A stretch of 64,000 nucleotides of DNA from contig OZ024744.1 of the NCBI GenBank assembly GCA_964016885.1, positions 93,930,001-93,994,000 of the forward strand, read 5' to 3'. The first letter of the stretch is position 1. Every line of letters starts with the position of its first letter. The notes under the pieces are model-generated. The model saw nothing but the letters and a program-made list of their open reading frames with translations. It was not told the DNA's origin and ran no database searches. The stretch comes from Eledone cirrhosa (lineage: Eukaryota). This document shows, one piece after another, positions 7,540-64,000 of this stretch. A program made the translations under genes and the position numbers.

Positions 7540-8232
7540 TCAAGGATCAATTCCCCCCTCGTCCTTCTGCATACGAAAGTCTGCTGTCCAGGTTGGTGTT
7601 TTGCGACTTCTTTGCGATCTCTGCAGTGTTGGGGCAGAACTTTGGGTTTCCTCTTCCTCGGAGTCCGTTGACACAGTGATTCTACGGACATCCAGGACAT
7701 GATGTGGTACTCCGTCCACGGACACATTGTTCTGGGAATTTACGGTCTTCACCGTTCCCCTTCCCCATTGAGATGTGCAACGTACATCTGGGGGCTTAAC
7801 CCAGACTTCTTCACCCACCTGCACGAATGCACTCTCTCTCCCCACTGGCCGTTGTGGTGGCGTGCACGGGTGCCGCCACTCGTATCTGAATATTGCTCTG
7901 TGTGGCACCGATTCTTCGACCTGTCCCACCCGAGGGGACATGTTGTACCAGAACACTGCCTCCATTGGTGAGATATGGCCCCGCTCCGCCATTGCCTTGA
8001 TCGTCCGGTGGTGTCGCTCCACAATTCCATTCCCGCTCGGCCTGTGCGCTGCTCTGAAGAAACGGTCCACCTTCCATCTATCGAACTTCTCCCTCAGCGC
8101 CTCCGAGCGGAACGCTGTGCTGTTGTCCATCAGCAGTTCGTACACAGGGCCCCGCTCCAAGAACACCTCTCTCAACGTCCGCATGATTTCCTCAGCCGTT
8201 CCAGTCTTCATCTCCCTCCATACGCCATCCAT
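7540..8232 (-). pseudogene. Integrase core and C-terminus
   Basis: ELLMDNSTAFRS..RPSGNGIVERHHRTIK (DDE core). Confidence 0.9.
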
Positions 8233-9521
8233 CCTGGTCCACAGTCGACCATCGAGAGGTACGTTCCCTGCCGGTAGTGCGTTACATCCACCGCCAATCG
8301 CTTCCAGTCACGATCCACCGGGAGGCTTCCCGTTTTGTGCACACCCAGGGCGGGATCAATGGACTGACATTGGACGCAGCCTCTAACCACCCTTTGAACA
8401 CTGTATCTGTTAACGTTTGAGTCGATTCTCCTGGCTAGGAACAGGCTCCTATCCACTCCCATGTGGTGCTTGTCATGCAACCCTTTCAGATCCGACTCGG
8501 TCAGCCGACACACGGCAGCTATCTCATCTTCTACCTCCTCCGGCGCTTCCATCCAGGCTTTCTTCACCCTAGTTAAGACGTCCACCCTATTTTTCTCTGA
8601 GGGCATGAACACTACGCTCAGCCTCAGGTCGAACTCGGTGGCCAGCTCTCCTAACGTTCCCAGGCGGTGCTTTATCAGCATCTCCACCGCCCCTCTCGTT
8701 CGCACTCTCTTCTCACTGGTGAGCACTGATCTCACCCATCCGAGTACAGTAGCCAAGTCGGTGCGTATCTCGATGGTGCGCAGGCCCCACCTCAGAGCGA
8801 GGTTCACCCCTCTCAACACTGCGTCCAGTTCGGCCACATTGATGTGGTTGCAGTCGTCCTTCTTCCTAAGCCAGGCTACATCCTCGACCTCGACACCTCC
8901 TGTCTCCAACGTGACACCCAGCGCTATGCTGCTGGCATCGCACCATACGGTCCCGCTCTGCAATTTGGGAATGTACCAGCGTCCCCGCACTGGGTCGTCG
9001 GCCTTCACCCTCCCCACGATCTCCTGCATCATGGCCACCGTCCTCTCTCCCACTCTGTCACTCCAAGTCACCCCTCCCGCTCGTCTCTTGACATAGCTGC
9101 ATGCCATCCGGAGTCACCCAGCGATCGGGTAGTAACCGACCAACTTCCCACACACTGAGAAAAGCTCCCACCTACTCATACTTGGGCCCAGTTCTGGAAC
9201 TTCATTTCCCCTCTGGAATACCAAGACGCCCGTCCTGTCTCGCCGTAACCTAAGTCCCAGTGCGGCTCCTCCCTCCAACGCTTCTGATGGCTTCGCAGCC
9301 AGTCCATACCCCTGTAAATGGCTCGTGACCTCCACCGCCGACACTACAGACTCGTCCACTAGGATGTTGTCAATGTAGGAGTTAGTGGCCATCTTCATCT
9401 TGTCGGCCTTTCCCAGAATGGTCTTGAGGACCGCCACCATGATCTTCAGTGCAGAGCTCAGCCCGAAACCGAGCCTGGTCAGGCAATATGTCCGGCCCTT
9501 ATACCTGCCAGAGCTTTTCAT
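8208..9521 (-). pseudogene. Reverse transcriptase (partial) and RNase H, with the integrase zinc-finger region
   Basis: YCLTRLGFGLSSA..SYIDNILV; WCDASSIALG..HINVAELDAV..IRTD; HDKHH..CVQC. Confidence 0.88.
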
Positions 9522-9844
9522 CTATATGCAATTGCAAGTATGCCGACTTTAGATCTACGATTGCTGAACCTCCCGTCATGCATCTCACGCAGGGTTTCCC
9601 CACAGACATCCGTGACCTCGCCACCCGGGGCATGACACGTGCTCGTTCAGCTCTCGAAAGTCCAGCACCGGCCTCACCTCGTTCTTCGTGGGTTGCGCCA
9701 CCGCCATTAACGGCAATACTCCGTACTTCACCTCCTCTTTCCAGGGAAGCAGTATGCCCTCCTCAATTCATCTCTCTACCTCTCGCTCGAACTCGCTCCT
9801 AATGTTCCTCTTCAATGTGTGTTGATAGCAGCCCACTTTGGTCT

Positions 9845-10297
9845 TCAGTGTTGGTGGTTCTCCCTTCCAGTACCACTCAACAATCCATCGAACACGGCAT
9901 TGAAGTCTTTGTCCTGCACAGTGTAAGCGGGGTATTTCTCCTCGTGGGCCTTCAGGTTCTCCTGTCGCTTACTCACAGCGCATACCGATGCAGCGGCGCC
10001 AAACGACACACCGACGTTGTTCACTGTGACACCTCCTAGACGGCCAATTGCGTCCATGCCCATAACCACGCCGATCCCATCCACCACGTTGTCAACTACG
10101 ATGGCAGAAAGCCTTATTTTCCTTCCCCGTACCGCTATCTCCACCTCGCTGCGACCTCGGCATTCAATTTTCCTGCCGTCGACTGCCCTTATGCTGCTCT
10201 TCCCTCTCCACGCCACCCCCGCGGTCACCAGTGTCGTCGTACAGCCCGTGTCCACGAGGGCTCGCTGTGACTTGCCCCTCTCGAAGACTTCCACCAC
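9845..10297 (-). pseudogene. Retroviral-type aspartic protease
   Basis: ALVDTGCTTTLV active site and VVMGMDAI motif. Confidence 0.9.
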
Positions 10298-10308
10298 GGG
10301 CAGCGCCT

Positions 10309-11024
10309 CTACTCATAAGGGGCAACTACCGGTGCAGTAGTTCCCCTTGGATCGTTTCCCTGGTCGCAGCTAGTAGCGATGTGGCCTGGTCGCTTACACT
10401 GGTAGCATATTATCTCCGGCCTCAACTCTCTACAGTCTCTCGCCATGTGCGGGCCCTGGCACCTAAAATAGCGACCTCTAAACGTTCGCGGGCAACCGCG
10501 TGCCATGGTTGCCTCCCTTTCACCATTTCACTGCCAGCTGTCTTGAGCCTCTGTAGTTGCCATCGCCGCAACACTCTTCTTGGCATCTTCTGCTATGATA
10601 CGGGCTTGTTCCACCAGTGAACACATCTCCATTTCTTTTAACCCGGGACTTGCTGCAGTTTCACCGCTATGTCGTCTGGAAATCCATTTATGAATGCCAA
10701 CCGCACCGTGCGTTCGCATTCCACCTGATATCCAGCCAACATGGCCAATCGCCGTATTTCCGCTGCGAAAATGTCAACGCGTTTACCGTTCCATCTAATT
10801 CTTGCCATCATGCGCCTCTCAATCTTTTGCGCATCTCTTTGGCTGTGTTCGTCCAACTCAAGGAAGAGTACCAACACGTCCCTCTCGAGGTACAGTGCCA
10901 TGAGGCCAGCCACATCTTCTATCTTCTGTAAGCTTGCGACCAGCCGGACTTTTCGCAACCAAGCGACATCGTCTTCACCGGTAAATGCCCTAATCGCTTC
11001 GTTCGTTTGTAGTCTCGTCGCCAT
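10309..11024 (-). pseudogene. gag with CCHC zinc knuckle(s), disrupted
   Basis: MATRLQTNEAIRAFTGEDDVAWLRK..; CYQCKRPGHIATSC. Confidence 0.85.
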
Positions 11025-23937: not shown

Positions 23938-24240
23938 TTGCAAGGGTGGGACGGGAACTGATTCTGGCTTGATTTCTACAGCTGGATGCCCTTCCTAACA
24001 CCAGCCTCATTTACAGTGAGTACTGGGTGCTTTTTTGCTATGGCACCTCCACGACCATTTTACAGTTGAATGATAGGGACCCCAGTCCCTATCATCTCAT
24101 TTCTACAGCTGAGTAAACTGGAGCAATGTGAGATAAAGTGTCTTGCCCAAGGAAACAACACAATAACCAGTCTGAGAATTGAACTCACAACCTTTCGATT
24201 GCAAGGCCAATGCTCTAACCACTAAGCCATGTGCCTCCAT
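23938..24240 (-). mobile_element. tRNA-type SINE family B with RTE-like 3' part (other copies 38765-39087, 41370-41700, 41718-42056, 46896-47240, 49965-50347, 51428-51762)
   Basis: Head GGAGGCACATGGCTTAGTGGTTAGAGC (A box)..GAGTTCAATTC (B box), core TCCTTGAGCAAGACACTTTA, tail GGTTGGTGTTAGGAAGGGCATCCAGCTGTAGAAA. Confidence 0.85.
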
Positions 24241-24990: not shown

Positions 24991-25189
24991 ATAACCCCAC
25001 ACAACTTTACAACACATTAGGGCGCACAACTTTACAACAAACTAGGGCTCACAACTTTTCAATAAATTAGGGCTCATAACTTTACGTTATATAACATACT
25101 AAGGATCATAACGTTATATCATAGGCAACATCAAATAAAGTGTTTTACTCAAGAACACAACACACAACCTAGTCCAGGAATTGAACCCA

Positions 25190-27005
25190 CATTCAAAGCA
25201 GAGACTTCACTCTCCAGTTGGTCCTCTTCGCAATCCCCACACAAGCCAGATCACTGACGATCCCAAAGAATTCGCAGAACTCATTGCTGAGTGCTATGCA
25301 AGTATTTTTACTGTTGAAAACCAGAATGTACCATCTCTAACATCAAATTCCATAACAACTATGGAATTTACACCTGCAATGTTGCGACGTCACCTTAAGA
25401 ATAAGCGCAACTATGCCTCGCCTGGTCTTGATGGTGTTACATACCTGCTTCTCAAACGTGGTGGGTATTTCCTTTTGCGTCAGCTTTCTTTCTTCTTTCA
25501 ATACTGTCTCAACAATGGTGCTACTCCGGAGCAGTGGAAAACTGCTAGTGTCATTCCCCTGTTCAAAAAGGGCAACCGCATGTCACCAGTCAGTCTTACT
25601 AGCTGTATGGCCAAACTGATGGAATCCTGTGTCAGAGAAACACTATGGAACTTCTGGAGCTCTCACAGCCTCATCCAGCCCTTGCAGTTTGGATTTATCC
25701 CTAACTCCAGCTGCTGTGATCAGCTTTTTGAGTTTCTTGAAGACATCACCCGGATCACTGACAGCGGCTCATGGGTGGATGTTGTTTACCTTGACTTTGC
25801 TAAGGCTTTTAATTCTGTGCCACACAAAAGACTTATGGCAAAACTCTCTGCAATGGGTGTGAGGGATGATCTTTTCGACTGGTTGAAATCCTTCATTCTC
25901 AGCCGAAAAGAAGTAGTCACGGTTCTAGGACAGCATTCTTCACCATATGAGATGTCATCTGGTGTACCACAGGGATCTGTTCTTGGTCCTCTTTTGTTTG
26001 TGGCATATATTAACGACATAGATGCCAACTTACAGAATGCCACGGTACTGAAATATGCAGATGACATCAAGCTGTACCTTGAAATCAAAAGGACTGATCC
26101 TGAAATCTACAACGCTTTCCTACAATCAGACCTAGACACAATGCAGCAATGGATCATAGACTGGCAACTGAAGCTGGCTGTGGACAAGTGTACCACCATG
26201 CATTTTGGGAGGAAAAATCCAGCGTCCACATACTCCCTCCACAACACTGATATCAAGAAGTCCTTTTGTGAACGTAACCTGGGCATTACTGTCAGCAGCG
26301 ATTTGCGTTGGACAAAGCATGTCTCTAAGATTGTCAAGAAGGCCGAGGGTGTCTTGGCATCACTCAGCAAGACCTTTGTTAGCCGCTCTCCAGCCATCTA
26401 TTTAAAACTGTATACAGCTATGGTACGACCACACTTGGAATTCACATCATCAGTCTGGAACCCCTATCTTGCTCAGAACATTGACCGCCTGGAAACTGTT
26501 CAGAGACATGCAACCAAGCGCATACCCTCCATCAGACACCTATCATACTCTGAACGCCTTGCTTCCCTGGGCATGGATTCATTGAAGCTCCGACGTCTGG
26601 CAATGGACTTGGTAAACACCCACAAAGTTATTAACCATCTCACCAACAACAACCCTGAGCACCTTTTTGATCTCCATGTGTCTAACACACGTGAACATGC
26701 CTACAAAATCAGAAAACAGCATAGCTCCCATGACTTTCGTAAACATTTTTTCAGAGTTGCTGAAGCATGGAACAAACTGCCTGCGTCAGTTGTTAGCTGC
26801 CGAGACACTATGCTTCCCGAAATACGCCAAAACTACCTGATGTACCCCTTCCATACACATGCACACATGTGTATATCATGACTCATGCACTGTTCATTTT
26901 CTTGACGTTTGTACATTACCCTATGTACTATACATACACTTTTTGATGAGTTGTAGTGCACCTGAGCACTGTACACAATATTTCATTATTATTATTATTA
27001 TTATT
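25190..27005 (+). mobile_element. 5'-truncated CR1-group LINE; RT frame open for ~560 codons (ORF 25181-26881), followed by 3' UTR and (ATT)n tail
   Basis: SPGLDG, PLFKKG, QFGF, YLDFAKAFNSV, GVPQGSVLGPLLF, YADD and VRPHLE motifs. Tail fragments also at ~16190-16370 and 30720-30870. Confidence 0.92.
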
Positions 27006-27789: not shown

Positions 27790-28390
27790 ACTTTACAGTG
27801 TGGAGTGGGTGCTTTTTGTTGTGACACCAACATGACCACTTTACAGTGTAGGTTAGGGGCTTTTTGTCGCGACATTACTCAACCATGTTGCAGTGAGTGC
27901 TGGGTGCTTTTTGTTGTGACACCTTCATGACTACTTTACAGTGTGGACTGGATGCTTTTTGTTGTGACACCTTCATGACTACTTTACAGTGTGGACTGGA
28001 TGCTTTTTGTTGTGACACCTTCATGACTACTTTACAGTGTGGACTGGGTGCTTTTTGCTGTGACACCAACATGAGCACTTTACAGTGAGTACTGGATGCT
28101 TTTTGTTGTAACACCAACACGACCACTTTACAGTGTGGACTGGGTGCTTTTTGCTGTGACACCAACATGAGCACTTTACAGTGAGTACTGGATGCTTTTT
28201 GTTGTAACACCAACACGACCACTTTACAGTGTGGACTGGGTGCTTTTTGCTGTGACACCAACATGAGCACTTTACAGTGAGTACTGGATGCTTTTTGTTG
28301 TAACACCAACACGACCACTTTACAGTGTGGGCTGGGTGTTTTTTATTGAGACATCTACATGACCACTTTACAGTGTGGGCTGGGGGCTTT
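27790..28390 (-). repeat. 48-bp minisatellite derived from the SINE tail segment
   Basis: Unit CTGGGTGCTTTTTGTTGTGACACC..ACTTTACAGTGTGGA, about 12 copies, continuous with a SINE/RTE 3' end at 27700-27780. Confidence 0.9.
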
Positions 28391-37369: not shown

Positions 37370-38180
37370 AAGGTGGTAGTGCTTGTGCCACTATAAAATG
37401 CACCCAGTCTGCACTGTAAAGTGGGAGTGCTGGTGCCACTATAAAATGCACCCAGTCTGCCCTGTAAGGTGGGTAGTGCTGGTGCCACTATAAAATGCAC
37501 CTAGTCTGCACTGTAAGGTGGTAGTGCTGGTGCCACTATAAAATGCACCCAGTCTGCACTGTAAGGTGGTAGTGCTGGTGCCATTATAAAATGCACCCAG
37601 TCTGCCCTGTAAGGTGGTAGTACTGGTGCCATTATAAAATGCACCCAGTCTGCATTGTAAGGTGGTAGTGCTGGTGCCATTATAAAATGCACCCAGTCTG
37701 CCCTGTAAGGTGGTAGTGTTGCTGCCACTATAAAATGCACCCAGTCTGCACTGTAAGGTGGTAGTGCTGGTGCCACTATAAAATGCACCCAGTCTGCACT
37801 GTAAGGTGGTAGTGCTGGTACCACCATAAAATGCACCCAGTCTGCACTGTAAGGTGGTAGTGCTGGTACCACTATAAAATGCACCCAGCCTGCACTAAGG
37901 TGGTAGTGCTGGTACCACTATAAAATGCACCCAGCTTGCACTAAGGTGGTAGTGCTGGTGCCACTATAAAAAACATCCTGTCTGCCCTGTAAGGTGGTAG
38001 TGCTGGTGCCATTATAAAATGCACCCAGTCTGCAGTGTAAGGTGGTAGTGCTGGTACTACAACAAAAACCATCCAATCTGCAGTGTAAGGTGGTAGTGCT
38101 GGTGCCACTATAAAATGCACCCAGTCTGCAGTGTAAGGTGGTAGTGCTGGTGCCACTATAAAATCTAGTACATACTGTAA
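37370..38180 (+). repeat. 48-bp minisatellite (SINE-derived), about 17 copies
   Basis: Unit GGTAGTGCTGGTGCCACTATAAAATGCACCCAGTCTGCACTGTAAGGT. Confidence 0.92.
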
Positions 38181-41194: not shown

Positions 41195-42085
41195 AAGACA
41201 TTTTTTCCAATTCCATCCCGCCCGTCCCTTTAATCTATTTTATTTCTCATTCTTTCTTCTGATGAAGGACTAGCGTCCGAAACATTAAGACCCTTTTCCT
41301 GCTATATCAAGCGTTAATATTGTACCGATCGTGTTGTTATTTCTGTTTACCTTTTACATCATCATCATCATTTCATTTTACGTCCGCTTTTCCCTGTTTG
41401 CAAGGGTGGGACGGGAACTGATGCTGGCTTGATTTCTACAGCTGGATGCCCTTCCTAACACCAACCTCATTTACAGTGAATGCTGGGTGCTTTTTTTGCC
41501 GTGGCACCTCCACGACCACTTTGCAGTGGAATGATAGGGACCCCAGTCCCTATCATCTCATTTTTACAGCTGAGTAAACTGGAGCAATGTGAAATAAAGT
41601 GTCTTGCTCAAGGAAACAACACATCACGCAGTCTGAGAATTGAACTCACAACCTTTCGATTGCAAGGCCAATGCTCTAACCACTAAGCCATGTGCCTCCA
41701 TATATATATATATATAGTGAAGGTGCATGACTTAGTGGTTAGAGCATGGGGCTTGCAATTGAGAGGTTGTGAGTTCAATTTTCAGACCAGGTGATGTGTT
41801 GTGCCCTTGAGCAAGACACTTTATTTCACATTGCTCCAGTATACTCAGCTGTAGAAATGAGTTGTGATGTCTCTGGTGCCAAGCTGTATCAGCCATTGCC
41901 TTTCCCTTGGACAACATTGGTGGCATGGAGAGGGGAGACAGGTATGCATGGGTGACTGCTGGTCTTCCACAAAATAAACTTTGCCAGGCTTGTGCCTCGG
42001 AGGGAAACTTTCTAGGTGCAAAACCATGGTCATCCTTGACCGAGTGGGGCCAAAGCAAAATATAAATATATATATATATATTGAA

Positions 42086-46826: not shown

Positions 46827-47267
46827 ATACATACATACATACAAACATACATACATACATACATACATACATACAAACATACATATATATATAGAGAGGC
46901 ACATGGCTTAGTGGTTAGAGCATTGGCCTTGCAATCGAAAGGTTGTCAGTTCAATTCTCAGACTGGGTGATGTGTTGTTTCCTTGAGCAAGACACTTTAT
47001 TTCACATTGCTCCAGTTTACTCAGCTGTAGAGTGCAAAGTGGTCGTGGAGGTGCCACGGCAAAAAACAGCACCCAGCACTCACTGTAGTGGATGTCTAGG
47101 CGCCACGGAAAAAAAGGCACCCAACACTCACTGTAAATGAGGTTGGTGTTAGGAAAGGCATCCAGCTGTAGAAATCAAGCCATAATCAGTTCCTGTCCCA
47201 CCCTTGCAAGCAGGGAAAAGTGGATGTAAAATGAAATGAAGTATTTCTGTCGGAAAGGTACAGGAAA

Positions 47268-49640
47268 AGGTTTCTTCTCTAGTTCAGCCATTGATTCAGC
47301 TATGAGCGTTAGATCATCTGCGTATAGGAGTTCCCATGGGCAGCCGGTCTTGAACTCCTCTGTTATAGCCTGAAGGGCAATAATAAATAGTAGGGGGCTA
47401 AGAATGGAGCCCTGATGAACATCAACTTTTATGCTAAACTCTTCACTATATTCATTATCAATTCTAACCTTGCTGACTGTTTCTTTATACATGGCTTGTA
47501 TAGCTCTCACAAGCCATTCATCAACACCTAGTTTTCTAAGAGCCCACCAGATAATGGAACGGGGGACTCTGTCAAAGGCTTTCTCCAAGTCAAGAAAAGC
47601 TAGGTATAGGGGTTTACTTTTAGCTAGGTACTTCTCCTGTAGTTGTCGTACAATGAAAAGAGCGTCTGTGGTACTTTTACCTGACACAAACCCGAACTAC
47701 ATTTCATCTAGATCAATTCGCTCTCTGATTAGTTGTGCTATTACTTTTTCTGTGACCTTCATGACCTGGTCGATTAATTTAATACCTCTATAGTTACCCA
47801 TATCTAGGGCATCTCCTTTACCAGTTAATGATGATGCTGCTACGCCAGTCCTTCGGAACAACCCCATTCTGTATGACTTGGTTTACTATCCGGGTGACCA
47901 TAGTGTGTCCCACCGTTCCAGAAGCTTTCAGCATTTCAGCAACTATTTCCAAAGGCCCAACCGCCTTACCCGTCTTCATATCTTTGATTGCCTTACTTAT
48001 TATACTACCTTCGACTAACACTGCTGGTCCCTCTATTGGATCGATGTGGGGGAGACTGTCTTTCTCCCATTTATTCTCCTCATTTAGTAGCCTTTCGTAG
48101 TGACACTTCCAAGCTACCTTCTTATCAGCGTCAGTGATGGCAAGTACACCATCATCATTAAGGACACACTTCTCCCCGACAATATCACGGTTTTCCTTGA
48201 CACATTGCCTAGCAATCCTGAACACCTCACGTTTTTGGTCCTCGCGTAGTAGAACATGCTTGAACTTTCTTTCCTCTGCTTCCCTTCTTGCGAAGTACAT
48301 TTGTCTCCTAGCTTCCCTCCTGGCCACTTGATAGTCTTCTCTACTTCCCCCATCCTGCCATACTTTCCAAGCCTGCTTTTTGGCCTTAATTGACTCCTCC
48401 ACCTTACTGTTCCACCACCACGTTACTCTCCTCCTGCCTATAGGCCTGCTCCAGCCACAGACTTCATCTGCCGCCATCAGCAGGTTTGCTTTCAGGAATT
48501 CCCACTGTTCCTCTATATTATACGACTCTAATTGCTCTTCCTTACTGTCGAAAGCATCAAGTAATATGCTTTTAAATTTATTACTGGCTGTGGGGTCCTT
48601 TAGCTTCCATATTTTTCACCTGAGGATAGTCCTCTTCTGTTGTTGAGTACGTCTCGTCCTGACTATGAGATCGCTAATTATGAGTCTATGTTGAGATGTG
48701 CATTCTTCATGGGGGAGGGATTTAGTGTTTACAACAGACACTCTGTCACGTCTTCTGGTAAGGATATAATCTACCTGGTATGTTCCCCTGATCAAGTGAT
48801 TGATGGAATGTTCCCCTGATTTGGTGATCAAGTGATTGTCTCGTTTTTTTAAGTTACTGTTACAGATAGTTAGGTTATTTGCGTCACAGAATTCCAGGAT
48901 TCTGGAGCCTTCCTTATTTCTAGTACCAAACCCATAGCCTCCATGGATTCCGTCATAGCCGTCACAATGTTGTCCAAGGTGACCATTTAGGTCGCCAGCA
49001 ATAATTATATAGTCACTGTCGGTTATTTGGGAGGTAGTGAGCATCAGTGTCTCGTAGAATCTGTCTTTTATAGCGCCAGGCAGTCCGGATTGGGGTGCAT
49101 ACGCAGATATTACTGTCACAGTAGTTCTATTTAGAACAAGTCTTATTTTAATTATTCTGTCGTTCACTCTATTTACGTCTATTATCTTATCCACCCATTT
49201 TTCTGCTAACATGATTCCTACCCCACTCAGCCCATTGTCATTTCCCACCCAGAAAAGCTTATAGCATCGTTTTTTACCCACAATGAATCTAGCTGGTCTC
49301 TTGGATACAGCAAACATCAACCTCCTTACATTCAAACATTTCTACAACCTCGTTAGAGCGACCTTTTAAGGTGCCTACATTCCTGGTACCAACTTGGAAG
49401 TTTTGGATTGCGTTTGGTGGGTGGGAACGGTGGGGCGCGGGGAGGGGGAGGGGGTTGGGGTTATGTTGGCCATCCGCGGCCGAAACAAAGAGGAGGACTC
49501 CTTGCCTTTTCGTCCGGCAGCATGAGGTGAATTTGTCGTTATCTTTGGCATTGTCACTGAGTGTCCAGCTTCTTCAGACTCTCCAGAATTCCTTAGTCCA
49601 TCCATCATATCGAAAAGCAACCAGGAGAAGTGATAGCATA
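47268..49640 (-). pseudogene. RTE-clade LINE: APE endonuclease and RT N-terminal/core region, frameshifted
   Basis: ISAYAPQSG, IIAGDLNGH, QVDYIL, SQHRLI (APE); FLDLEKAFDRV, HQGSILSPLLF, YADD (RT). Confidence 0.93.
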
Positions 49641-51994: not shown

Positions 51995-52825
51995 AAAGAC
52001 TAAGGTCCTCGTAAGTAGACGAGAAAACAGAGCCCAGATCCCCTCAGGGAAATGGCCTTGCACAGTATGTAGAAAAGGTGTAGGTAGCAACTCCACCCTC
52101 TGCCCCAAATGCAAACAATGGGTTCACAAGAGATGTAGTGAGATCTCAGGAGGCTAGCTAAGAATGTAGGCTTTACATGCAGCAAACGACCACAGGAAAC
52201 AAGCACCACCAAACTCTGGGAGGGCTCTGTAGAAACAGTAGACAGCTTTTGCTACCTAGGTGACTGAATTAGCAGCAGAGGTGGGTGTTTGGAAAGTATT
52301 GTAATCAGAGTAAGAATGGGATGGAAGAAGTTCAGGGAGCTATTGCCACTGCTAGGCTTCTCCCTCAAAATGAAAGGCAGACTCTATGATACGTGCATAC
52401 GAACAGCAATGTTACATGGTAGTGAGACATGGGTGCTGTCTGTGGAAGACTTGCGTAGATTAGAAAGAAACGAAGCCTGCATGCTCCGATGGATGTGTAA
52501 TAGTAATATATGTGAATGGCAAAGCATAAATGAATTGAGAGAGAGACTGAGCATAAGAGGAATTAAATGCTGTGTGCAGGAGAGGAGGTTGCGTTGGTAT
52601 GGACATGTGATGCGTATGAAGGATGACAGCTGCATAAAAAGGTGCAGAGCACTAGAAGTCAATGGAAACTGCGGAGTGGGGAGACCCAAGAAGACCTGGG
52701 ATGAGGTGATAAAAGTCGACCTTACCCAATTACACCTCTCAGAGGCGATGACACACGACCATGACCTCTGGCGTCACGTAGTAATACAGAAGACCCGACC
52801 TCCCACGGGTACAAGCCGAAGCTGA
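51995..52825 (+). pseudogene. RTE LINE 3' part
   Basis: KTKVLVS..SGKWPCTVCRKGVG; MLHGSETW..RRLRWYGHVMRMKDD..GRPKKTW. Confidence 0.9.
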
Positions 52826-53167
52826 AGCATATAGACAATATGCCCCCACCCCTTCTCGCTGTAAAGTGGTCGTGGAGGTGTCACGGCAAAAAAGCACCCA
52901 GCCCACACTGTAAAGTGGTCGTGTAGGCGCCACAGAAAAAAACATCCAGCACTCACTGTAAATGAGGTTGGTGATAGGAAGGGTATCCAGCTGTAGAAAT
53001 CAAGCCAGAATCAGTTCCCGTATGAGCAAGACATGGTCAGCCGACCGGACACTGCCTACAATAGGACAACCCGTCTAACCCATGCTACATGGAAGAATGG
53101 ACGTAAAACGGTGATGATAATAATGATATACATATATATATATATACATACATATATATATATATAA

Positions 53168-53204
<37 letters not shown>

Positions 53205-53797
53205 CATATATCATCATCATCATCATCATCATCACCGTTTTACGTCCGTTCTTCCACGCTAGCATGGGTTAGACGGGTTGTCCTGTTGTGGGCAGTGTCT
53301 GGTCGGCTGACCATGCCTTGCTCATACAGGAACTGATCTGGCTTGATTTCTACAGCTGGATGCCCTTCCTAACACCAACCTCATTTACAGTGAGTGCTGG
53401 GTGCTTTTTCGTGGCGCCTACACGTCCACTTTACAGTGTGGGCTGGGTGCTTTTTTGCCGTGGCACCTCCACGACCACCTTGCGGTGGGGGGGGGGGCAT
53501 ATTGTTTATATGCTTCAGCATGTACCCATGGGAGGTCGGGTACCCTGTATTACTGCGTGACGCCAGAAGTCACGGTCGTGTGTCATTGACTTTGAGAGGT
53601 GTAGTTGGGTAAGGTCGGCTTTTATCATATATATATATATATATATATAAATACATATATATATATATATATATGAATATAGACATAGAATATTCGAAAA
53701 TATTCTGTATGTTTATAATAAACATTTTGAAGACCTAATCGCTATAGAATAGAATACGTCACGTATTACAATTAGATTCTCGATAAAAGCAAGGGAA

Positions 53798-53840
53798 GTA
53801 ATCTACGCGTTTCATTCTCGTTAGAAATCATCAGGACTAC
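53798..53840 (-). ncRNA. Type I hammerhead ribozyme, first of 6 minus-strand copies (starts 53798, 54108, 54418, 54728, 55038, 55348)
   Basis: Reverse complement of GTAGTC-CTGATGA-TTTCTAACGAGAAT-GAAAC-GC-GTA-GATTAC. Confidence 0.88.
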
Positions 53841-55673
53841 ATATCCAGTGCTTTTATCGAGAATGACACAGCTAGAGACTTATAGAATACTTAGCTGTGT
53901 ACAGGAACTGGTTTGAAAGAGCGGTTGCCGGTCCGGCAGAAATTAGAAATTGGAATAAATGCTCTGAAATAGCGATATATATGTGAATATAGACATAGAA
54001 TATTCGAAAATATTCTGTATGTTTATAATAAACATTTTGAAGACCTAATCGCTATAGAATAGAATACGTCACGTATTACAATTAGATTCTCGATAAAAGC
54101 AAGGGAAGTAATCTACGCGTTTCATTCTCGTTAGAAATCATCAGGACTACATATCCAGTGCTTTTATCGAGAATGACACAGCTAGAGACTTATAGAATAC
54201 TTAGCTGTGTACAGGAACTGGTTTGAAAGAGCGGTTGCCGGTCCGGCAGAAATTAGAAATTGGAATAAATGCTCTGAAATAGCGATATATATGTGAATAT
54301 AGACATAGAATATTCGAAAATATTCTGTATGTTTATAATAAACATTTTGAAGACCTAATCGCTATAGAATAGAATACGTCACGTATTACAATTAGATTCT
54401 CGATAAAAGCAAGGGAAGTAATCTACGCGTTTCATTCTCGTTAGAAATCATCAGGACTACATATCCAGTGCTTTTATCGAGAATGACACAGCTAGAGACT
54501 TATAGAATACTTAGCTGTGTACAGGAACTGGTTTGAAAGAGCGGTTGCCGGTCCGGCAGAAATTAGAAATTGGAATAAATGCTCTGAAATAGCGATATAT
54601 ATGTGAATATAGACATAGAATATTCGAAAATATTCTGTATGTTTATAATAAACATTTTGAAGACCTAATCGCTATAGAATAGAATACGTCACGTATTACA
54701 ATTAGATTCTCGATAAAAGCAAGGGAAGTAATCTACGCGTTTCATTCTCGTTAGAAATCATCAGGACTACATATCCAGTGCTTTTATCGAGAATGACACA
54801 GCTAGAGACTTATAGAATACTTAGCTGTGTACAGGAACTGGTTTGAAAGAGCGGTTGCCGGTCCGGCAGAAATTAGAAATTGGAATAAATGCTCTGAAAT
54901 AGCGATATATATGTGAATATAGACATAGAATATTCGAAAATATTCTGTATGTTTATAATAAACATTTTGAAGACCTAATCGCTATAGAATAGAATACGTC
55001 ACGTATTACAATTAGATTCTCGATAAAAGCAAGGGAAGTAATCTACGCGTTTCATTCTCGTTAGAAATCATCAGGACTACATATCCAGTGCTTTTATCGA
55101 GAATGACACAGCTAGAGACTTATAGAATACTTAGCTGTGTACAGGAACTGGTTTGAAAGAGCGGTTGCCGGTCCGGCAGAAATTAGAAATTGGAATAAAT
55201 GCTCTGAAATAGCGATATATATGTGAATATAGACATAGAATATTCGAAAATATTCTGTATGTTTATAATAAACATTTTGAAGACCTAATCGCTATAGAAT
55301 AGAATACGTCACGTATTACAATTAGATTCTCGATAAAAGCAAGGGAAGTAATCTACGCGTTTCATTCTCGTTAGAAATCATCAGGACTACATATCCAGTG
55401 CTTTTATCGAGAATGACACAGCTAGAGACTTATAGAATACTTAGCTGTATTCTATTCTATAGCGATTAGGTCTTCAAAATGTTTATTATAAACATACAGA
55501 ATATTTTCGAATATTCTATGTCTATATTCACATATATATCGCTATTTCAGAGCATTTATTCCAATTTCTAATTTCTGCCGGACCGGCAACCGCTCTTTCA
55601 AACCAGTTCCTGTACACAGCTAAGTATTCTATAAGTCTCTAGCTGTGTCATTCTCGATAAAAGCACTGGATAT

Positions 55674-55716
55674 GTAGTCCTGATGATTTCTAACGAGAAT
55701 GAAACGCGTAGATTAC
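55674..55716 (+). ncRNA. Type I hammerhead ribozyme, first of 8 plus-strand copies (55674, 55984, 56294, 56604, 56914, 57224, 57534, 57844)
   Basis: Stem I GTAGTC/GATTAC, extended by 16-bp ATTCTCGATAAAAGCA/TGCTTTTATCGAGAAT. Core CTGATGA and GAAA; stem II TTCT-AACG-AGAA; palindromic stem III ACGCGT; predicted cleavage after GUA (55710). Confidence 0.9.
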
Positions 55717-58079
55717 TTCCCTTGCTTTTATCGAGAATCTAATTGTAATACGTGACGTATTCTATTCTATAGCGATTAGGTCTTCAAAATGTTTATTATA
55801 AACATACAGAATATTTTCGAATATTCTATGTCTATATTCACATATATATCGCTATTTCAGAGCATTTATTCCAATTTCTAATTTCTGCCGGACCGGCAAC
55901 CGCTCTTTCAAACCAGTTCCTGTACACAGCTAAGTATTCTATAAGTCTCTAGCTGTGTCATTCTCGATAAAAGCACTGGATATGTAGTCCTGATGATTTC
56001 TAACGAGAATGAAACGCGTAGATTACTTCCCTTGCTTTTATCGAGAATCTAATTGTAATACGTGACGTATTCTATTCTATAGCGATTAGGTCTTCAAAAT
56101 GTTTATTATAAACATACAGAATATTTTCGAATATTCTATGTCTATATTCACATATATATCGCTATTTCAGAGCATTTATTCCAATTTCTAATTTCTGCCG
56201 GACCGGCAACCGCTCTTTCAAACCAGTTCCTGTACACAGCTAAGTATTCTATAAGTCTCTAGCTGTGTCATTCTCGATAAAAGCACTGGATATGTAGTCC
56301 TGATGATTTCTAACGAGAATGAAACGCGTAGATTACTTCCCTTGCTTTTATCGAGAATCTAATTGTAATACGTGACGTATTCTATTCTATAGCGATTAGG
56401 TCTTCAAAATGTTTATTATAAACATACAGAATATTTTCGAATATTCTATGTCTATATTCACATATATATCGCTATTTCAGAGCATTTATTCCAATTTCTA
56501 ATTTCTGCCGGACCGGCAACCGCTCTTTCAAACCAGTTCCTGTACACAGCTAAGTATTCTATAAGTCTCTAGCTGTGTCATTCTCGATAAAAGCACTGGA
56601 TATGTAGTCCTGATGATTTCTAACGAGAATGAAACGCGTAGATTACTTCCCTTGCTTTTATCGAGAATCTAATTGTAATACGTGACGTATTCTATTCTAT
56701 AGCGATTAGGTCTTCAAAATGTTTATTATAAACATACAGAATATTTTCGAATATTCTATGTCTATATTCACATATATATCGCTATTTCAGAGCATTTATT
56801 CCAATTTCTAATTTCTGCCGGACCGGCAACCGCTCTTTCAAACCATTTCCTGTACACAGCTAAGTATTCTATAAGTCTCTAGCTGTGTCATTCTCGATAA
56901 AAGCACTGGATATGTAGTCCTGATGATTTCTAACGAGAATGAAACGCGTAGATTACTTCCCTTGCTTTTATCGAGAATCTAATTGTAATACGTGACGTAT
57001 TCTATTCTATAGCGATTAGGTCTTCAAAATGTTTATTATAAACATACAGAATATTTTCGAATATTCTATGTCTATATTCACATATATATCGCTATTTCAG
57101 AGCATTTATTCCAATTTCTAATTTCTGCCGGACCGGCAACCGCTCTTTCAAACCAGTTCCTGTACACAGCTAAGTATTCTATAAGTCTCTAGCTGTGTCA
57201 TTCTCGATAAAAGCACTGGATATGTAGTCCTGATGATTTCTAACGAGAATGAAACGCGTAGATTACTTCCCTTGCTTTTATCGAGAATCTAATTGTAATA
57301 CGTGACGTATTCTATTCTATAGCGATTAGGTCTTCAAAATGTTTATTATAAACATACAGAATATTTTCGAATATTCTATGTCTATATTCACATATATATC
57401 GCTATTTCAGAGCATTTATTCCAATTTCTAATTTCTGCCGGACCGGCAACCGCTCTTTCAAACCAGTTCCTGTACACAGCTAAGTATTCTATAAGTCTCT
57501 AGCTGTGTCATTCTCGATAAAAGCACTGGATATGTAGTCCTGATGATTTCTAACGAGAATGAAACGCGTAGATTACTTCCCTTGCTTTTATCGAGAATCT
57601 AATTGTAATACGTGACGTATTCTATTCTATAGCGATTAGGTCTTCAAAATGTTTATTATAAACATACAGAATATTTTCGAATATTCTATGTCTATATTCA
57701 CATATATATCGCTATTTCAGAGCATTTATTCCAATTTCTAATTTCTGCCGGACCGGCAACCGCTCTTTCAAACCAGTTCCTGTACACAGCTAAGTATTCT
57801 ATAAGTCTCTAGCTGTGTCATTCTCGATAAAAGCACTGGATATGTAGTCCTGATGATTTCTAACGAGAATGAAACGCGTAGATTACTTCCCTTGCTTTTA
57901 TCGAGAATCTAATTGTAATACGTGACGTATTCTATTCTATAGCGATTAGGTCTTCAAAATGTTTATTATAAACATACAGAATATTTTCGAATATTCTATG
58001 TCTATATTCACATATATATCGCTATTTCAGAGCATTTATTCCAATATATATATATATATACATATATATATTTAAATAC

Positions 58080-58110
<31 letters not shown>

Positions 58111-58597
58111 CATTTATATATACATACATATATATATATATATATTCCTTTTCGTCCTCTCCAATGACTCCACCTGGCTCTCATCCTTGTTCCCATTCCC
58201 ACTTCAACACTTCTCCCTTCATTTCCACTCTCACAGGCCCTAACTGTAAATGTGGTCTTGTAGGTGTTACAACAAAAAGCAACCAGCTAACACTGTAAAG
58301 TGGTCATGTAGGTGACACAACAAAAAGCACCCAATCCACACTGTAAATGTGTTTGGCATTAGGAAGGGCATCCAGCTACAGAAATCTAGCCAGAAACAGT
58401 TCTGTATGAGCAAGACATGGTCACTTGACCCAACTTGCCTCAAATGGGACAACCCCACTAACCCATGCTAGCGTGGAAAATGGACATTAAACGATAATGA
58501 TGAAGAGGATGATGATAATAACAAAAAGACTATACTTAATGTGGTCAGGTAGAAATGCTAGATAAAACAAGGAAAAGACAAAAATATTGATACAAAC

Positions 58598-61778: not shown

Positions 61779-62614
61779 CTAAACAAAAGAAAGTCATAAA
61801 TTAACTCTTGTTGGAGAAACATAGACAAAATGTTTTTGTTTTATCACACATATGAGGGTCAGCTGAAAGGTTCATAGAGCCGTGAAATCTTGCATGCACT
61901 AATTTCATCTCTTCTTATTAATAACTGTATTGTTTCTTTCCCGGGACTATGTTGAAAAATAAACCTCATTTGGCCATTCCATGAGAGTATCTTGGTCAGC
62001 TTATGAACTCTTCAGCTGACCCTTGTACATACTCACACACACATCAACATGCACATCACTATCACACTTTCTCTGCTAACAATGGTTGGAAGGGCTCTTC
62101 ACAGACCAAGTCAGTACTGAAGCAAGGCCAGGGATCTGTATCTTGCTTATGTATGGTCTCACATACTAGCGAGTGCACAGGGAGGTTGTCACGACCTTTG
62201 ACACAACTGAAGCGTCCTCCCAACCCTTTCACCCTTTCTTTGGCAAGGGCAGATGTAGTGATGGAGAGAATAGCTAAGGAGTGATAGTAGAAGGTACATG
62301 GGTGGGGTAGAGAGAGTAGTGCCTAGGGTGTGAAAGTGGGGGCATCTAAGGGATTTAGAGGGAGCAGTAGCTAAGGAGTGCTACTGAAGAGGGCGTGGAT
62401 TGGGTTGGGATGTGTAGTGATGCTGAGGATAGCTACTAGGGTGTGCTAACGGAAATGGAGTTAAGTCAGGTGACATTGTACACTGATGGATGGGTAGATA
62501 GATGGGTAGACACACAATTTAAAAGCCACTCCCCTCATCTTACAACCCCACTCCCATCAATGTCTTTTCCAGCCTGAGTATACAATGTGAGCCTCAATAC
62601 TTTAAAAATGGCAA

Positions 62615-64000
62615 TGCACCCAGTCCACTCAGTAAAGAGGTAGTGCTGGTGTCATGATAAAATACACCCAGCCCACTCAGTAAAGAGGTAGTGCTGGTGT
62701 CATGATAAAATACACCCTGCTCACTCAGTAAAAAGGTAGTGCTGGTGTCATGATAAAATACACCCAGCCCACTCAGTAAAGAGGTAGTACTGGTGTCATG
62801 ATAAAATACACCCAGCCCACTCAGTAAAAAGGTAGTACTGGTGTCATGATAAAATACACCCAACCCACTCAGTAAAAAGGTAGTACTGGTGTCATGATAA
62901 AATACACCCAACCCACTCAGTAAAAAGGTAGTACTGGTGTCATGATAAAATACACCCAGCCCACCCAGTAAAGAGGTAGTGCTGGTGTCATGATAAAATA
63001 CACCCAGCCCACTCAGTAAAGAGGTAGTGCTGGTGTCATGATAAAATACACCCAGCCCACTCAGTAAAGAGGTAGTACTGGTGTCATGATAAAATACACC
63101 CAGCCCACTCAGTAAAGAGGTAGTACTGGTGTCATGATAAAATACACCCAGCCCACTCAGTAAAAAGGTAGTACTGGTGTCATGATAAAATACACCCAGC
63201 CCACTCAGTAAAGAGGTAGTACTGGTGTCATGATAAAATACACCCAGCCCACTCAGTAAAGAGGTAGTACTGGTGTCATGATAAAATACACCCAGCCCAC
63301 TCAGTAAAGAGGTAGTTCTGGTGTCATGATAAAATACACCCAGCCCACTCAGTAAAAAGGTAGTACTGGTGTCATGATAAAATACACCCAGCCCACTCAG
63401 TAAAAAGGTAGTACTGGTGTCATGATAAAATACACCCAACCCACTCAGTAAAAAGGTAGTACTGGTGTCATGATAAAATACACCCAGCCCACTCAGTAAA
63501 AAGGTAGTACTGGTGTCATGATAAAATACACCCAGCCCACTCAGTAAAAAAGTAGTACTGGTGTCATGATAAAATACACCCAGCCCACTCAGTAAAAAGG
63601 TAGTACTGGTGTCATGATAAAATACACCCAGCCCACTCAGTAAAAAGGTAGTACTGGTGTCATGATAAAATACACCCAGCCCACTCAGTAAAGAGGTAGT
63701 GCTGGTGTCATGATAAAATACACCCAGCCCACTCAGTAAAGAGGTAGTGCTGGTGTCATGATAAAATACACCCAGCCCACTCAGTAAAGAGGTAGTACTG
63801 GTGTCATGATAAAATACACCCGGCCCACTCAGTAAAGAGGTAGTACTGGTGTCATGATAAAATACACCCAGCCCACTCAGTAAAGAGGTAGTGCTGGTGT
63901 CATGATAAAATACAACCAGCCCACTCAGTAAAGAGGTAGTGCTGGTGTCATGATAAAATACAACCAGCCCACTCAGTAAAGAGGTAGTGCTGGTGTCATG
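62615..64000 (+). repeat. 48-bp minisatellite (SINE-derived), about 29 copies, running off the window
   Basis: Unit GGTAGT(G/A)CTGGTGTCATGATAAAATACACCCAGCCCACTCAGTAAA(G/A)A. Confidence 0.95.

What the first reader, a model, noticed from the sequence alone, without database searches (positions are those of the whole stretch)
53674..58045. Very young 14-ribozyme array: a 310-nt hammerhead-bearing monomer (candidate new retrozyme / circular RNA family)
Seen: a 310-bp unit repeated about 14 times with near-zero divergence, inside (TA)n, with no ORF. Each unit has a complete type I hammerhead: GUAGUC-CUGAUGA-stem II-GAAAC-GC-GUA/GAUUAC, with stem I extended by a perfect 16-bp helix. The rest of the monomer is also self-complementary: AGAAUAUU-UUCG-AAUAUUCU, AUAGCGAU/AUCGCUAU, UGCCG-GAC-CGGCA and ACACAGCUA/UAGCUGUGU. 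Established: tandem non-coding repeats of a few hundred bp with type I hammerheads (newt satellite 2, Schistosoma Sm-alpha, metazoan non-LTR retrozymes) self-cleave into monomers that can circularise, and are thought to spread using Penelope-like RTs. A palindromic short stem III favours dimeric cleavage, which a tandem array supplies. Inference: this is a concatemer reverse-transcribed from a 310-nt circular RNA and inserted recently. I do not know whether this family has been described.
Basis: partly seen in the sequence, partly recalled or inferred. Interest (0 to 1): 0.88.

Follow-up and report, generated by a model that had tools for sequence, protein, structure and literature searches.

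The report
Two-armed hammerhead retrozyme, Penelope-type ends
This is one of more than a thousand recent insertions of a 310-base non-coding repeat with a predicted self-cutting RNA motif; it is built as two back-to-back strings of identical units with fixed ends, which likely means that a Penelope-type jumping-gene enzyme copied one small RNA circle round and round onto both sides of a DNA break.

Summary
This is not one tandem array: it is two divergent arms (5.75 units on minus, 8.38 on plus) inside (TA)n. The family has 16,464 unit matches in the genome and about 1,250 matches for each of two fixed ends. Of 90 loci analysed, 79 are two-armed, and all 79 have one short end and one end about 26 nt longer. 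That is the Penelope-like element (PLE) 'inverted copy plus tail' signature, also seen on a Neptune-like PLE in this genome. Variants are typically fixed through every unit of both arms (33 haplotypes in 81 loci) and avoid the ribozyme core and stems (1 of 29, versus 35 of 98 single-unit changes). Sister families covary in the helices. Best reading: an animal non-LTR retrozyme whose monomer circle is likely copied by rolling-circle reverse transcription from both target strands. Cleavage, circles and expression are untested, and no partner PLE was found. The class is known; I found no paper describing this architecture for retrozymes. This scan noted the same family and reading earlier at other loci.

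The parts
53627..53674 (.). Left (TA)n target tract
   Evidence: TRF; sequence
53665..55448 (-). Left arm: 5.75 monomers, 6 hammerheads; its 3' end (start of reverse transcription, inferred) is at monomer position about 130-139, the short 'A' end
53665..53674 (-). A end: AU-repeat of the monomer overlaps the target TA tract; terminal-unit-only C131>T difference at 53673, also seen at 54 of 87 A ends
55447..55448 (.). Inner 5'-to-5' junction of the two arms, 2-nt microhomology (monomer positions 216 and 47)
55447..58045 (+). Right arm: 8.38 monomers, 8 hammerheads, one substitution at 56846; ends at monomer position 165, the long 'B' end
55711..56020 (+). Reference 310-nt monomer, from one predicted cleavage site to the next (position 1 = first base after the cut)
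55960..56048 (+). One type I hammerhead with its 16-bp distal helix (core starts 55990; predicted cut after 56020; U.U at the base of stem II; palindromic 6-nt stem III)
   Evidence: activity not tested
57939..58025 (+). Stem-loop domain (monomer 59-145) that holds the A start site; conserved in the sister families; candidate binding and priming site for the reverse transcriptase (inferred)
58020..58045 (+). 26-nt 'tail' present at only one end of the insertion (monomer 140-165)
58044..58145 (.). Right (TA)n target tract; a target-site duplication cannot be resolved inside it

Best explanation
This is a young, non-coding, two-armed insertion of a 310-nt hammerhead repeat (an animal non-LTR retrozyme) that a Penelope-like retrotransposon enzyme likely made by nicking both strands of a (TA)n tract and copying one RNA monomer, probably a circle, round and round from each nick. 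Shown: two divergent multi-unit arms; one arm always ending at monomer position about 139 and the other at 163-172; variable inner junctions with 0-5 nt overlap; TA targets; haplotypes shared by all units of both arms; and sparing of the ribozyme and stems. Inferred steps: (1) arrays are transcribed; (2) the hammerhead, probably as a dimer through its palindromic stem III, cuts out monomers; (3) a host ligase closes them; (4) a PLE protein binds the 59-165 stem-loop and starts cDNA at two sites about 26 nt apart, one per target strand; (5) both cDNAs run several rounds; (6) their ends are joined by microhomology. My odds by step: retrozyme class 0.95, PLE machinery 0.88, circular monomer template about 0.75.
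For: ARCHITECTURE. 79 of 90 loci are minus-then-plus two-armed, and all 79 have one A end and one B end. Many of these loci were chosen by their ends; among 10 loci chosen by the hammerhead motif alone, 9 are two-armed A+B. From coordinates only, 63 of 63 divergent end pairs on C1:0-218 Mb are A+B and none is A+A or B+B. End counts are balanced, 1,256 and 1,246. Both flanks are TA repeat in 72 of 79. No two of the 79 share an inner junction. PLE MATCH. An inverted 5'-truncated copy, a 30-40-bp tail at one end and (TA)n bias are PLE hallmarks (Craig et al., passages). A purified PLE protein nicks and extends both strands and starts at two internal RNA sites that bound the tail (PMC11167929). 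A Neptune-like PLE in this genome (L186: 1,096-codon frame, RT E = 7e-10, GIY-YIG hit) has an inverted arm and two TA-flanked ends 35 nt apart. MONOMER BOTTLENECK. 141 array-wide variants, 121 of them in both arms, against 114 single-unit variants in 254,777 bp. 33 haplotypes among 81 loci of at least 3 units, 25 seen once; for example L085 88A>T in 25 of 25 units. Only 2 loci carry a non-fixed substitution shared by both arms at the same distance from the start (L068, L079), against 80 variant occurrences not shared; the other shared rows are indel-placement effects (L053, L082) or L104. NO 5' END AT THE CUT SITE. Arms read through 823 cut sites; 4 of 174 arm 5' ends lie within 8 nt of the cut (9 expected if uniform); 1 private change lies within 5 nt of it. 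Arms reach 27 units. SELECTION AS RNA. 1 of 29 distinct array-wide substitutions breaks the core or a stem, versus 35 of 98 private ones (Fisher p = 3e-4); 37% of all possible changes would. With two sister families, 16 of 29 pairs change on both sides and 95% of cells pair, against 43-50% when partners are slid.
Against: No partner PLE with matching ends was found: 50 GIY-YIG loci (about five Neptune-like families) and 80 sister-motif loci were screened. Cleavage, circles and transcription are untested; in the Xenopus preprint only 1 of 9 predicted retrozyme dimers cleaved. The U.U pair and weak stem II suggest slow cleavage, which would also let linear multimers survive, and the PAc study found uncleaved RNA to be the main substrate in vitro. 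Some loci are mosaic: in L079 both arms switch haplotype after two units, which fits a shared linear template or later conversion better than a single circle; L104, L054 and L068 are also mosaic. 'Unique' haplotypes are unique only among 90 of roughly 1,700 loci. 9 of 90 loci are single-armed and 2 are complex. The tail (26 nt, up to 35 given TA ambiguity) is at the low edge of the 30-40 range. The covariation counts sequences from three related families, not independent events. All array-level loci are from contig C1 except the window.
Confidence: 0.7

Rival explanations
1. The same PLE double priming, but on a long linear, largely uncleaved multimer transcribed from an existing array (or on linear monomers joined by template jumps). 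No circle is needed.
For: Weak stem II and U.U pair. HHR cleavage was dispensable and unprocessed RNA was the main substrate for the PAc protein. L079 has the same haplotype switch in both arms, and L068 shares one variant in the same unit of both arms.
Against: A linear template passes on single-unit variants and does not fix them, yet 25 of 81 loci have a haplotype seen once and fixed array-wide, and mosaics are few. Arrays would shrink each generation, yet arms reach 27 units. Template jumps should scar the cut site or mix haplotypes: 823 cut sites are crossed with 1 private change nearby.
Confidence: 0.17
2. A short PLE-type insertion of one or two units is expanded afterwards at DNA level (slippage, unequal crossover) and homogenised by gene conversion, like satellite DNA; this is the model favoured in the 2026 preprint.
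For: The preprint proposes local tandem expansion by unequal crossover. Inverted repeats can convert each other (general knowledge, not from a call). A few mosaics exist.
Against: Single-unit divergence is only 0.045%, leaving little time. Stepwise expansion should copy private variants into adjacent units, and such blocks are rare (20 mosaic rows, several of them alignment ambiguities of fixed indels). Both arms are at least one full unit in 67 of 79 loci, so the template already spanned the cut site. DNA-level spread would not select for RNA pairing.
Confidence: 0.07
3. A LINE (RTE or CR1 type, both present in the window) mobilises the RNA, and the inversion is L1-style twin priming.
For: LINE remnants are common here. 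Twin priming gives a 5' inversion with a microhomology junction (recalled, not from a call).
Against: Twin priming has one fixed 3' end and a variable internal primer site. Here both outer ends are fixed, either can lie left or right (33 versus 30), and there is no poly(A) or terminal repeat tail. Inversion is the rule rather than a minority.
Confidence: 0.04
4. The palindrome is an assembly or fold-back read artefact.
For: Inverted repeats in (TA)n are hard to assemble; three fetched loci contain N gaps, and L102 repeats the junction of its neighbour L062. Host raw reads were not available to test junctions.
Against: A fold-back would mirror one arm and its flank. Here the two ends differ by a fixed 26-31 nt at 79 of 79 loci, arm lengths are at most weakly correlated (rho 0.19, p = 0.09), and junctions are locus-specific. 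Older, diverged sister families and an ORF-bearing PLE show the same build.
Confidence: 0.02

Closest known systems
Metazoan non-LTR retrozymes (Cervera and de la Pena 2020, PMC7229834; passages and sections 13 and 17 read, supplements not seen)
   Same: Tandem units of 150-450 bp with one type I hammerhead each, GC under 50%, non-coding, self-paired, thousands of copies. Axolotl HHR_Amex2 has the same U.U at the base of stem II with a 2-bp stem III and cleaves better as a dimer. The paper proposes circle-templated tandem cDNA with PLEs as candidate helpers.
   Different: That paper showed cleavage and circles by experiment; here neither is shown. It does not describe inverted two-armed insertions, fixed ends or microsatellite targets (no hit for 'orientation', 'microsatellite' or 'cephalopod'; the 'invert' passages shown are all 'invertebrate').
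Li, Clavereau and Pollet 2026, bioRxiv 10.64898/2026.07.22.740005 (parts 1-3 of 5 read: introduction to discussion; supplements closed)
   Same: Animal retrozymes as non-autonomous PLE derivatives; similar unit sizes.
   Different: Their evidence is co-occurrence and pLTR sequence similarity in Xenopus, with arrays growing locally by unequal crossover. Here the link is the insertion signature, arrays appear to be made at insertion, and no pLTR homolog was found. No mollusc was sampled.
EN+ Penelope-like elements: Neptune, Poseidon, Naiad (Craig et al. 2021, PMC8557442 and its preprint, passages; Frangieh et al. 2024, PMC11167929, abstract and main text)
   Same: Inverted 5'-truncated copy, tail at one end only, (TA)n targets, two internal start sites downstream of the hammerhead, both strands extended.
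   Different: No ORF and no RT or endonuclease. The unit is a 310-nt repeat in arms of up to 27 copies. The one-short-one-long pairing is strict (79 of 79), whereas the in vitro study saw no strand difference in start site. The A start overlaps an AU repeat complementary to the target, whereas PAc starts without target homology.
Newt satellite 2 and Schistosoma Sm-alpha hammerhead repeats (recalled; satellite 2 also mentioned in PMC7229834)
   Same: About 300-bp tandem units with a type I hammerhead; dimeric cleavage in newts.
   Different: Here the repeat is dispersed over more than a thousand small palindromic insertions; no sequence comparison was made.

Membership tests
Type I hammerhead ribozyme | Core CUGANGA...GAAA...UH with three stems, stem I open | tested here: met
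   All 14 copies; no array-wide variant hits the 13 core positions; all 6 stem I pairs covary in sister families
Type I hammerhead ribozyme | Canonical base pair (usually G-C) at the base of stem II | tested here: not met
   U.U in the window; a U>A variant restoring the pair is fixed in 13 loci plus most of L079; a U.U variant is reported active in axolotl
Type I hammerhead ribozyme | Match to an Rfam hammerhead model at gathering score | tested here: not met
   No hit at gathering; HH9 15.8 bits against 52, E = 0.5
Type I hammerhead ribozyme | Self-cleavage in vitro | not testable with these tools
   Needs a transcription assay
Metazoan non-LTR retrozyme | Tandem 150-450-bp low-GC units, each with a type I hammerhead | tested here: met
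   310 bp, 34.5% GC
Metazoan non-LTR retrozyme | Non-coding; no LTR or flanking element sequence | tested here: met
   Longest frame 59 codons; arms abut TA tracts directly; PBS and PPT were not searched separately
Metazoan non-LTR retrozyme | Dispersed multi-copy family | tested here: met
   16,464 unit matches; 1,256 and 1,246 end matches
Metazoan non-LTR retrozyme | Expressed as linear and circular monomer RNA | not testable with these tools
   Needs RNA data or a bench test
Metazoan non-LTR retrozyme | Target-site duplication longer than 4 bp, when present | tested here: inconclusive
   Hidden by (TA)n on both sides
PLE-mobilised element | Inverted 5'-truncated copy at the 5' end | tested here: met
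   79 of 90 loci; 9 of 10 loci chosen without regard to ends
PLE-mobilised element | 30-40-bp tail at one end only (two start sites) | tested here: met
   Ends at 139 versus 163-172 in 77 of 79, at 128 or 138 in the other two; tail 26 nt, up to 35 given TA ambiguity
PLE-mobilised element | (TA)n insertion bias | tested here: met
   72 of 79 have TA repeat on both sides; the end-pattern picks require TA, and the 10 hammerhead-picked loci also show AT-rich repeats
PLE-mobilised element | Sequence homology to the pLTR of an autonomous PLE | tested here: inconclusive
   None found among 50 GIY-YIG loci and 80 sister-motif loci; only the best 150 of 10,597 GIY-YIG candidates were scored
Autonomous PLE | ORF with RT and GIY-YIG endonuclease | tested here: not met
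   No ORF in the element

The most novel reading that the evidence does not exclude
This is a viroid-like RNA circle lineage that has kept evolving under selection on its RNA fold through several bursts (310-, 317- and about 320-nt families with different hammerheads and one shared priming domain). Each insertion is a direct genomic record of rolling-circle reverse transcription in which a PLE enzyme copies one circle onto both strands of a break, from two obligatorily different start sites. That would be the first readable evidence for circle-templated retrotransposition in an animal, and a rule (one short start, one tailed start) that explains the PLE inverted-repeat-plus-tail structure.
Probability: 0.55. 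Interest if true: 0.82.

Novelty: new variant of a known kind. Interest (0 to 1): 0.64.

Why it matters
Two open questions meet here. First, how animal retrozymes return to DNA: circle-templated tandem cDNA by PLEs was proposed in 2020 and, in the papers I read, not shown. Second, how PLEs make their inverted and tailed insertions: Craig et al. name this as needing mechanistic work. This family supplies more than a thousand near-identical insertions with exact predicted start sites (139 and 165), a defined 310-nt substrate and a defined target, so both questions become testable in a tube. It also added about 5.1 Mb (0.17% of the genome) of multi-kilobase palindromes recently.

Tried and rejected

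(2) Public runs: no RNA holder listed, which says nothing on expression. Twenty runs under 18 organism labels hold the sequence, and I laid 8 runs. Six hold single-unit or partial contigs, mostly at depth 2-34 (X1: 365), carrying haplotypes of this genome. Two raw Hi-C runs from the same study and organism label as the best holder gave 0 reads in 1.9 Gb each. I read this as carry-over between libraries and reject horizontal transfer as unsupported. The 340-nt contigs are what any tandem repeat gives and are no evidence of an RNA circle. Junctions could not be checked in raw host reads.

(3) Partner search. The GIY-YIG scan gave about five Neptune-like families, and other PLE types turned up by chance. 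None of 50 loci shared the priming domain, except where a sister retrozyme had inserted next to a PLE end (L155/L201). 30 + 20 + 30 sister-motif loci showed no PLE ORF joined to the domain. A Pfam accession recalled from memory was not in the library.

(4) Ligation-scar idea. Fixed 1-nt insertions just after the cut site occur in 6 loci, but 4 share one haplotype, so they are not evidence of repeated scars.

(5) The absence of array-wide variants in the 13 core positions is not significant alone; only core plus stems is.

(6) MAFFT misaligned stems II and III and two hairpins between families, so these were left out of the pair count.

(7) L102 was dropped from all counts as a copy of neighbouring L062, and a fragment of a sister family at the start of L045 was ignored.

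(8) A look-up of earlier findings by sequence returned nothing.
Full report
OBSERVATION. The window holds a 310-bp unit with 14 hammerhead cores, but TRF reports two arrays. Base-by-base comparison shows a minus-strand arm at 53665-55448 (5.75 units, 6 ribozymes) and a plus-strand arm at 55447-58045 (8.38 units, 8 ribozymes), with two differences in total. The arms diverge from a 2-nt overlap and sit between TA tracts. I number the monomer from the first base after the predicted cut (window 55711). The left arm's 3' end is at position 139 and the right arm's at 165. There is no ORF (59 codons at most). Stem II opens with U.U and is weakly populated in a single-ribozyme fold, while the 6-nt stem III palindrome forms a -7.5 kcal/mol duplex with a second copy. 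Rfam gives no hammerhead at gathering score and HH9 only at E = 0.5.

FAMILY. The window lies on contig C28 of a 3.0-Gb assembly. Its repeats look like octopus; that is recalled and echoed by earlier scan notes, not determined by a call. Exact patterns give 4,101 hammerheads of the window's haplotype, 16,464 units (about 5.1 Mb), 1,256 ends at position 139 followed by TA and 1,246 ends at 165 or 167 followed by TA; reversed-pattern controls gave 0 in each. Scaling from C1 suggests about 1,700 loci (rough). On C1:0-218 Mb, 100 A ends and 92 B ends form 63 divergent pairs. All are A+B (33 with B on the left, 30 with A on the left) and none is A+A or B+B.

ARCHITECTURE AT SEQUENCE LEVEL. I analysed the window and 90 fetched stretches and dropped L102 as a copy of neighbouring L062. 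Ten were picked by the hammerhead motif, 20 by listed ends, 40 by paired ends (biased towards two arms) and 20 by unpaired ends. Of 90, 79 are two-armed, 9 single-armed and 2 complex. All 79 have one A end (77 at 139) and one B end (163-172). Five more loci missed by both end patterns gave 3 two-armed and 2 single-armed. Inner junctions are all different, mostly with 0-5 nt overlap; some have short fillers copied from nearby element sequence, and one has a 272-nt foreign filler. Median arm length is 3.5 units and the maximum 27. The 5' ends are spread round the unit (KS p = 0.055) and do not pile up at the cut site (4 of 174). At 54 of 87 A ends the last unit reads T instead of C at 131, so the start lies at 130-139 within an AU repeat that matches the target.

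THIS IS THE PLE SIGNATURE. Craig et al. describe an inverted 5'-truncated copy, a 30-40-bp tail at one end and (TA)n bias (passages). Frangieh et al. showed that a purified PLE protein nicks and extends both strands and starts at two internal RNA sites that bound the tail, without needing hammerhead cleavage (main text). In this genome a Neptune-like element with a 1,096-codon frame (L186; RT, GIY-YIG) has an inverted arm and two TA-flanked ends 35 nt apart. LINE twin priming does not predict two fixed ends.

TEMPLATE. Variants fall in two classes. There are 141 array-wide variants, 121 present in both arms, and 114 single-unit variants in 254,777 bp (0.045%, or 0.14 per unit). Among 81 loci of at least three units there are 33 array-wide haplotypes, 25 seen once. 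Fifteen loci carry a variant fixed there and seen nowhere else, about what is expected if each insertion descends from one random unit of a parent array (0.09-0.14; the observed 18% is an upper bound). A linear multimer would pass on mosaics; one monomer read repeatedly gives this pattern. Arms cross 823 cut sites cleanly, which disfavours end-to-end jumps between cut monomers. Against: L079 switches haplotype after two units in both arms, L068 shares one variant in the same unit of both arms, and L104 and L054 are mosaic. These need a linear or larger template, a template switch, or later conversion.

SELECTION AS RNA. Only 1 of 29 distinct array-wide substitutions breaks the core or a stem; 7 keep pairing, and the common ones fall at core position 7, in loop II and at the U.U base of stem II, where U>A restores a pair. 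Private substitutions break core or stems in 35 of 98 cases, close to the 37% random expectation (p = 3e-4). A loose end in a public contig led to older sister families of about 317-320 nt (2,282 matches to one of their motifs). They have different hammerheads, the same 59-235 region, and, in the copies inspected, the same two ends and inversion. Across 17 rows from three families, 16 of 29 tested pairs change on both sides, 95% of cells pair, and slid controls give 43-50%; this reflects three related lineages, not 17 events.

WHAT WAS NOT FOUND. No autonomous PLE sharing the priming domain turned up. The search covered a small part of the genome's PLEs, so the helper is unidentified, not absent. 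No experiment on cleavage or circles was possible.

KNOWN AND NEW. The element meets the sequence definition of metazoan non-LTR retrozymes (PMC7229834, sections 13 and 17), for which circle-templated tandem cDNA and PLE help were proposed. The 2026 preprint links retrozymes to PLEs by pLTR similarity and favours later tandem expansion. Five literature searches showed no paper on an octopus retrozyme or on two-armed retrozyme insertions. PMC11722881, PMC7761336 and PMC9695139 I saw only as listings; the supplements of the retrozyme papers were not seen, and subscription papers are not covered. Earlier notes of this scan report the same family and reading at other loci. I looked them up after the architecture, haplotype and PLE comparisons were done, and they are not independent support.

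VERDICT. A real, very young retrozyme family. The class is known; the strict two-armed PLE-type build and array-wide haplotypes make the proposed rolling-circle, PLE-driven route directly testable. Confidence 0.70 in the full mechanism; interest 0.64.

Noticed in passing
L128:1640-1810, L141:1860-2040, L190, L191, L194, L048, L051, L119: A different short hammerhead element has nearly the same core and U.U stem II as this family (26 of 28 nt), its own two ends (tail about 70 nt) and TA targets. Many of its arms begin 3-10 nt before the core, about 30 nt after a TATA-like motif, as if copied from a linear RNA with a fixed 5' end. It could serve as a linear-template control, and may be the source of this family's stem II.
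   Followed up: partly
L121, L141, L153, L205-L223, L231-L260: Older sister families (317-320 nt) share the priming domain but carry several hammerhead variants, some with U3/A8. Their arms in the copies seen are mostly under two units, against a median of 3.5 in the young family.
   Followed up: partly
L227, L031, L032, L040 flanks: Some insertions are flanked by many repeats of a complex TA-rich unit on both sides, which might be reiterative copying of the target by a telomerase-like RT, or microsatellite slippage.
   Followed up: no
L054:1499-1770: A 272-nt GC-rich foreign sequence is captured between the two arms; no match in the other loci then held.
   Followed up: partly
L041 and L078: Complex insertions: L041 has a short duplicated inverted block at the junction; L078 has a restart within one arm.
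   Followed up: no
L184-L203, L224, L225: At least five Neptune-like PLE families plus other PLE types, several with minimal U3/A8 hammerheads in their ends; L184 and L186 have frames of 938 and 1,096 codons.
   Followed up: partly
window 52855-53600 and 58243-58500: An inverted pair of a SINE-like repeat with 48-nt internal units around a TA tract lies just left of the insertion, and another copy lies to the right.
   Followed up: no
window 24168-24231 and 41629-41692 (-): Two identical 64-nt tRNA-like hits, probably SINE heads.
   Followed up: no
window 7540-10312 (-), 25139-26881 (+), 47175-49341 (-), 52268-52825 (+): Remnants that look like an LTR retrotransposon, a 580-codon LINE RT frame, and RTE-type LINE pieces; labels by eye from translations.
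   Followed up: no
window 27790-28390, 37370-38164, 62613-64000: 48-bp tandem repeats, the last with at least 29 copies at 97% match.
   Followed up: no
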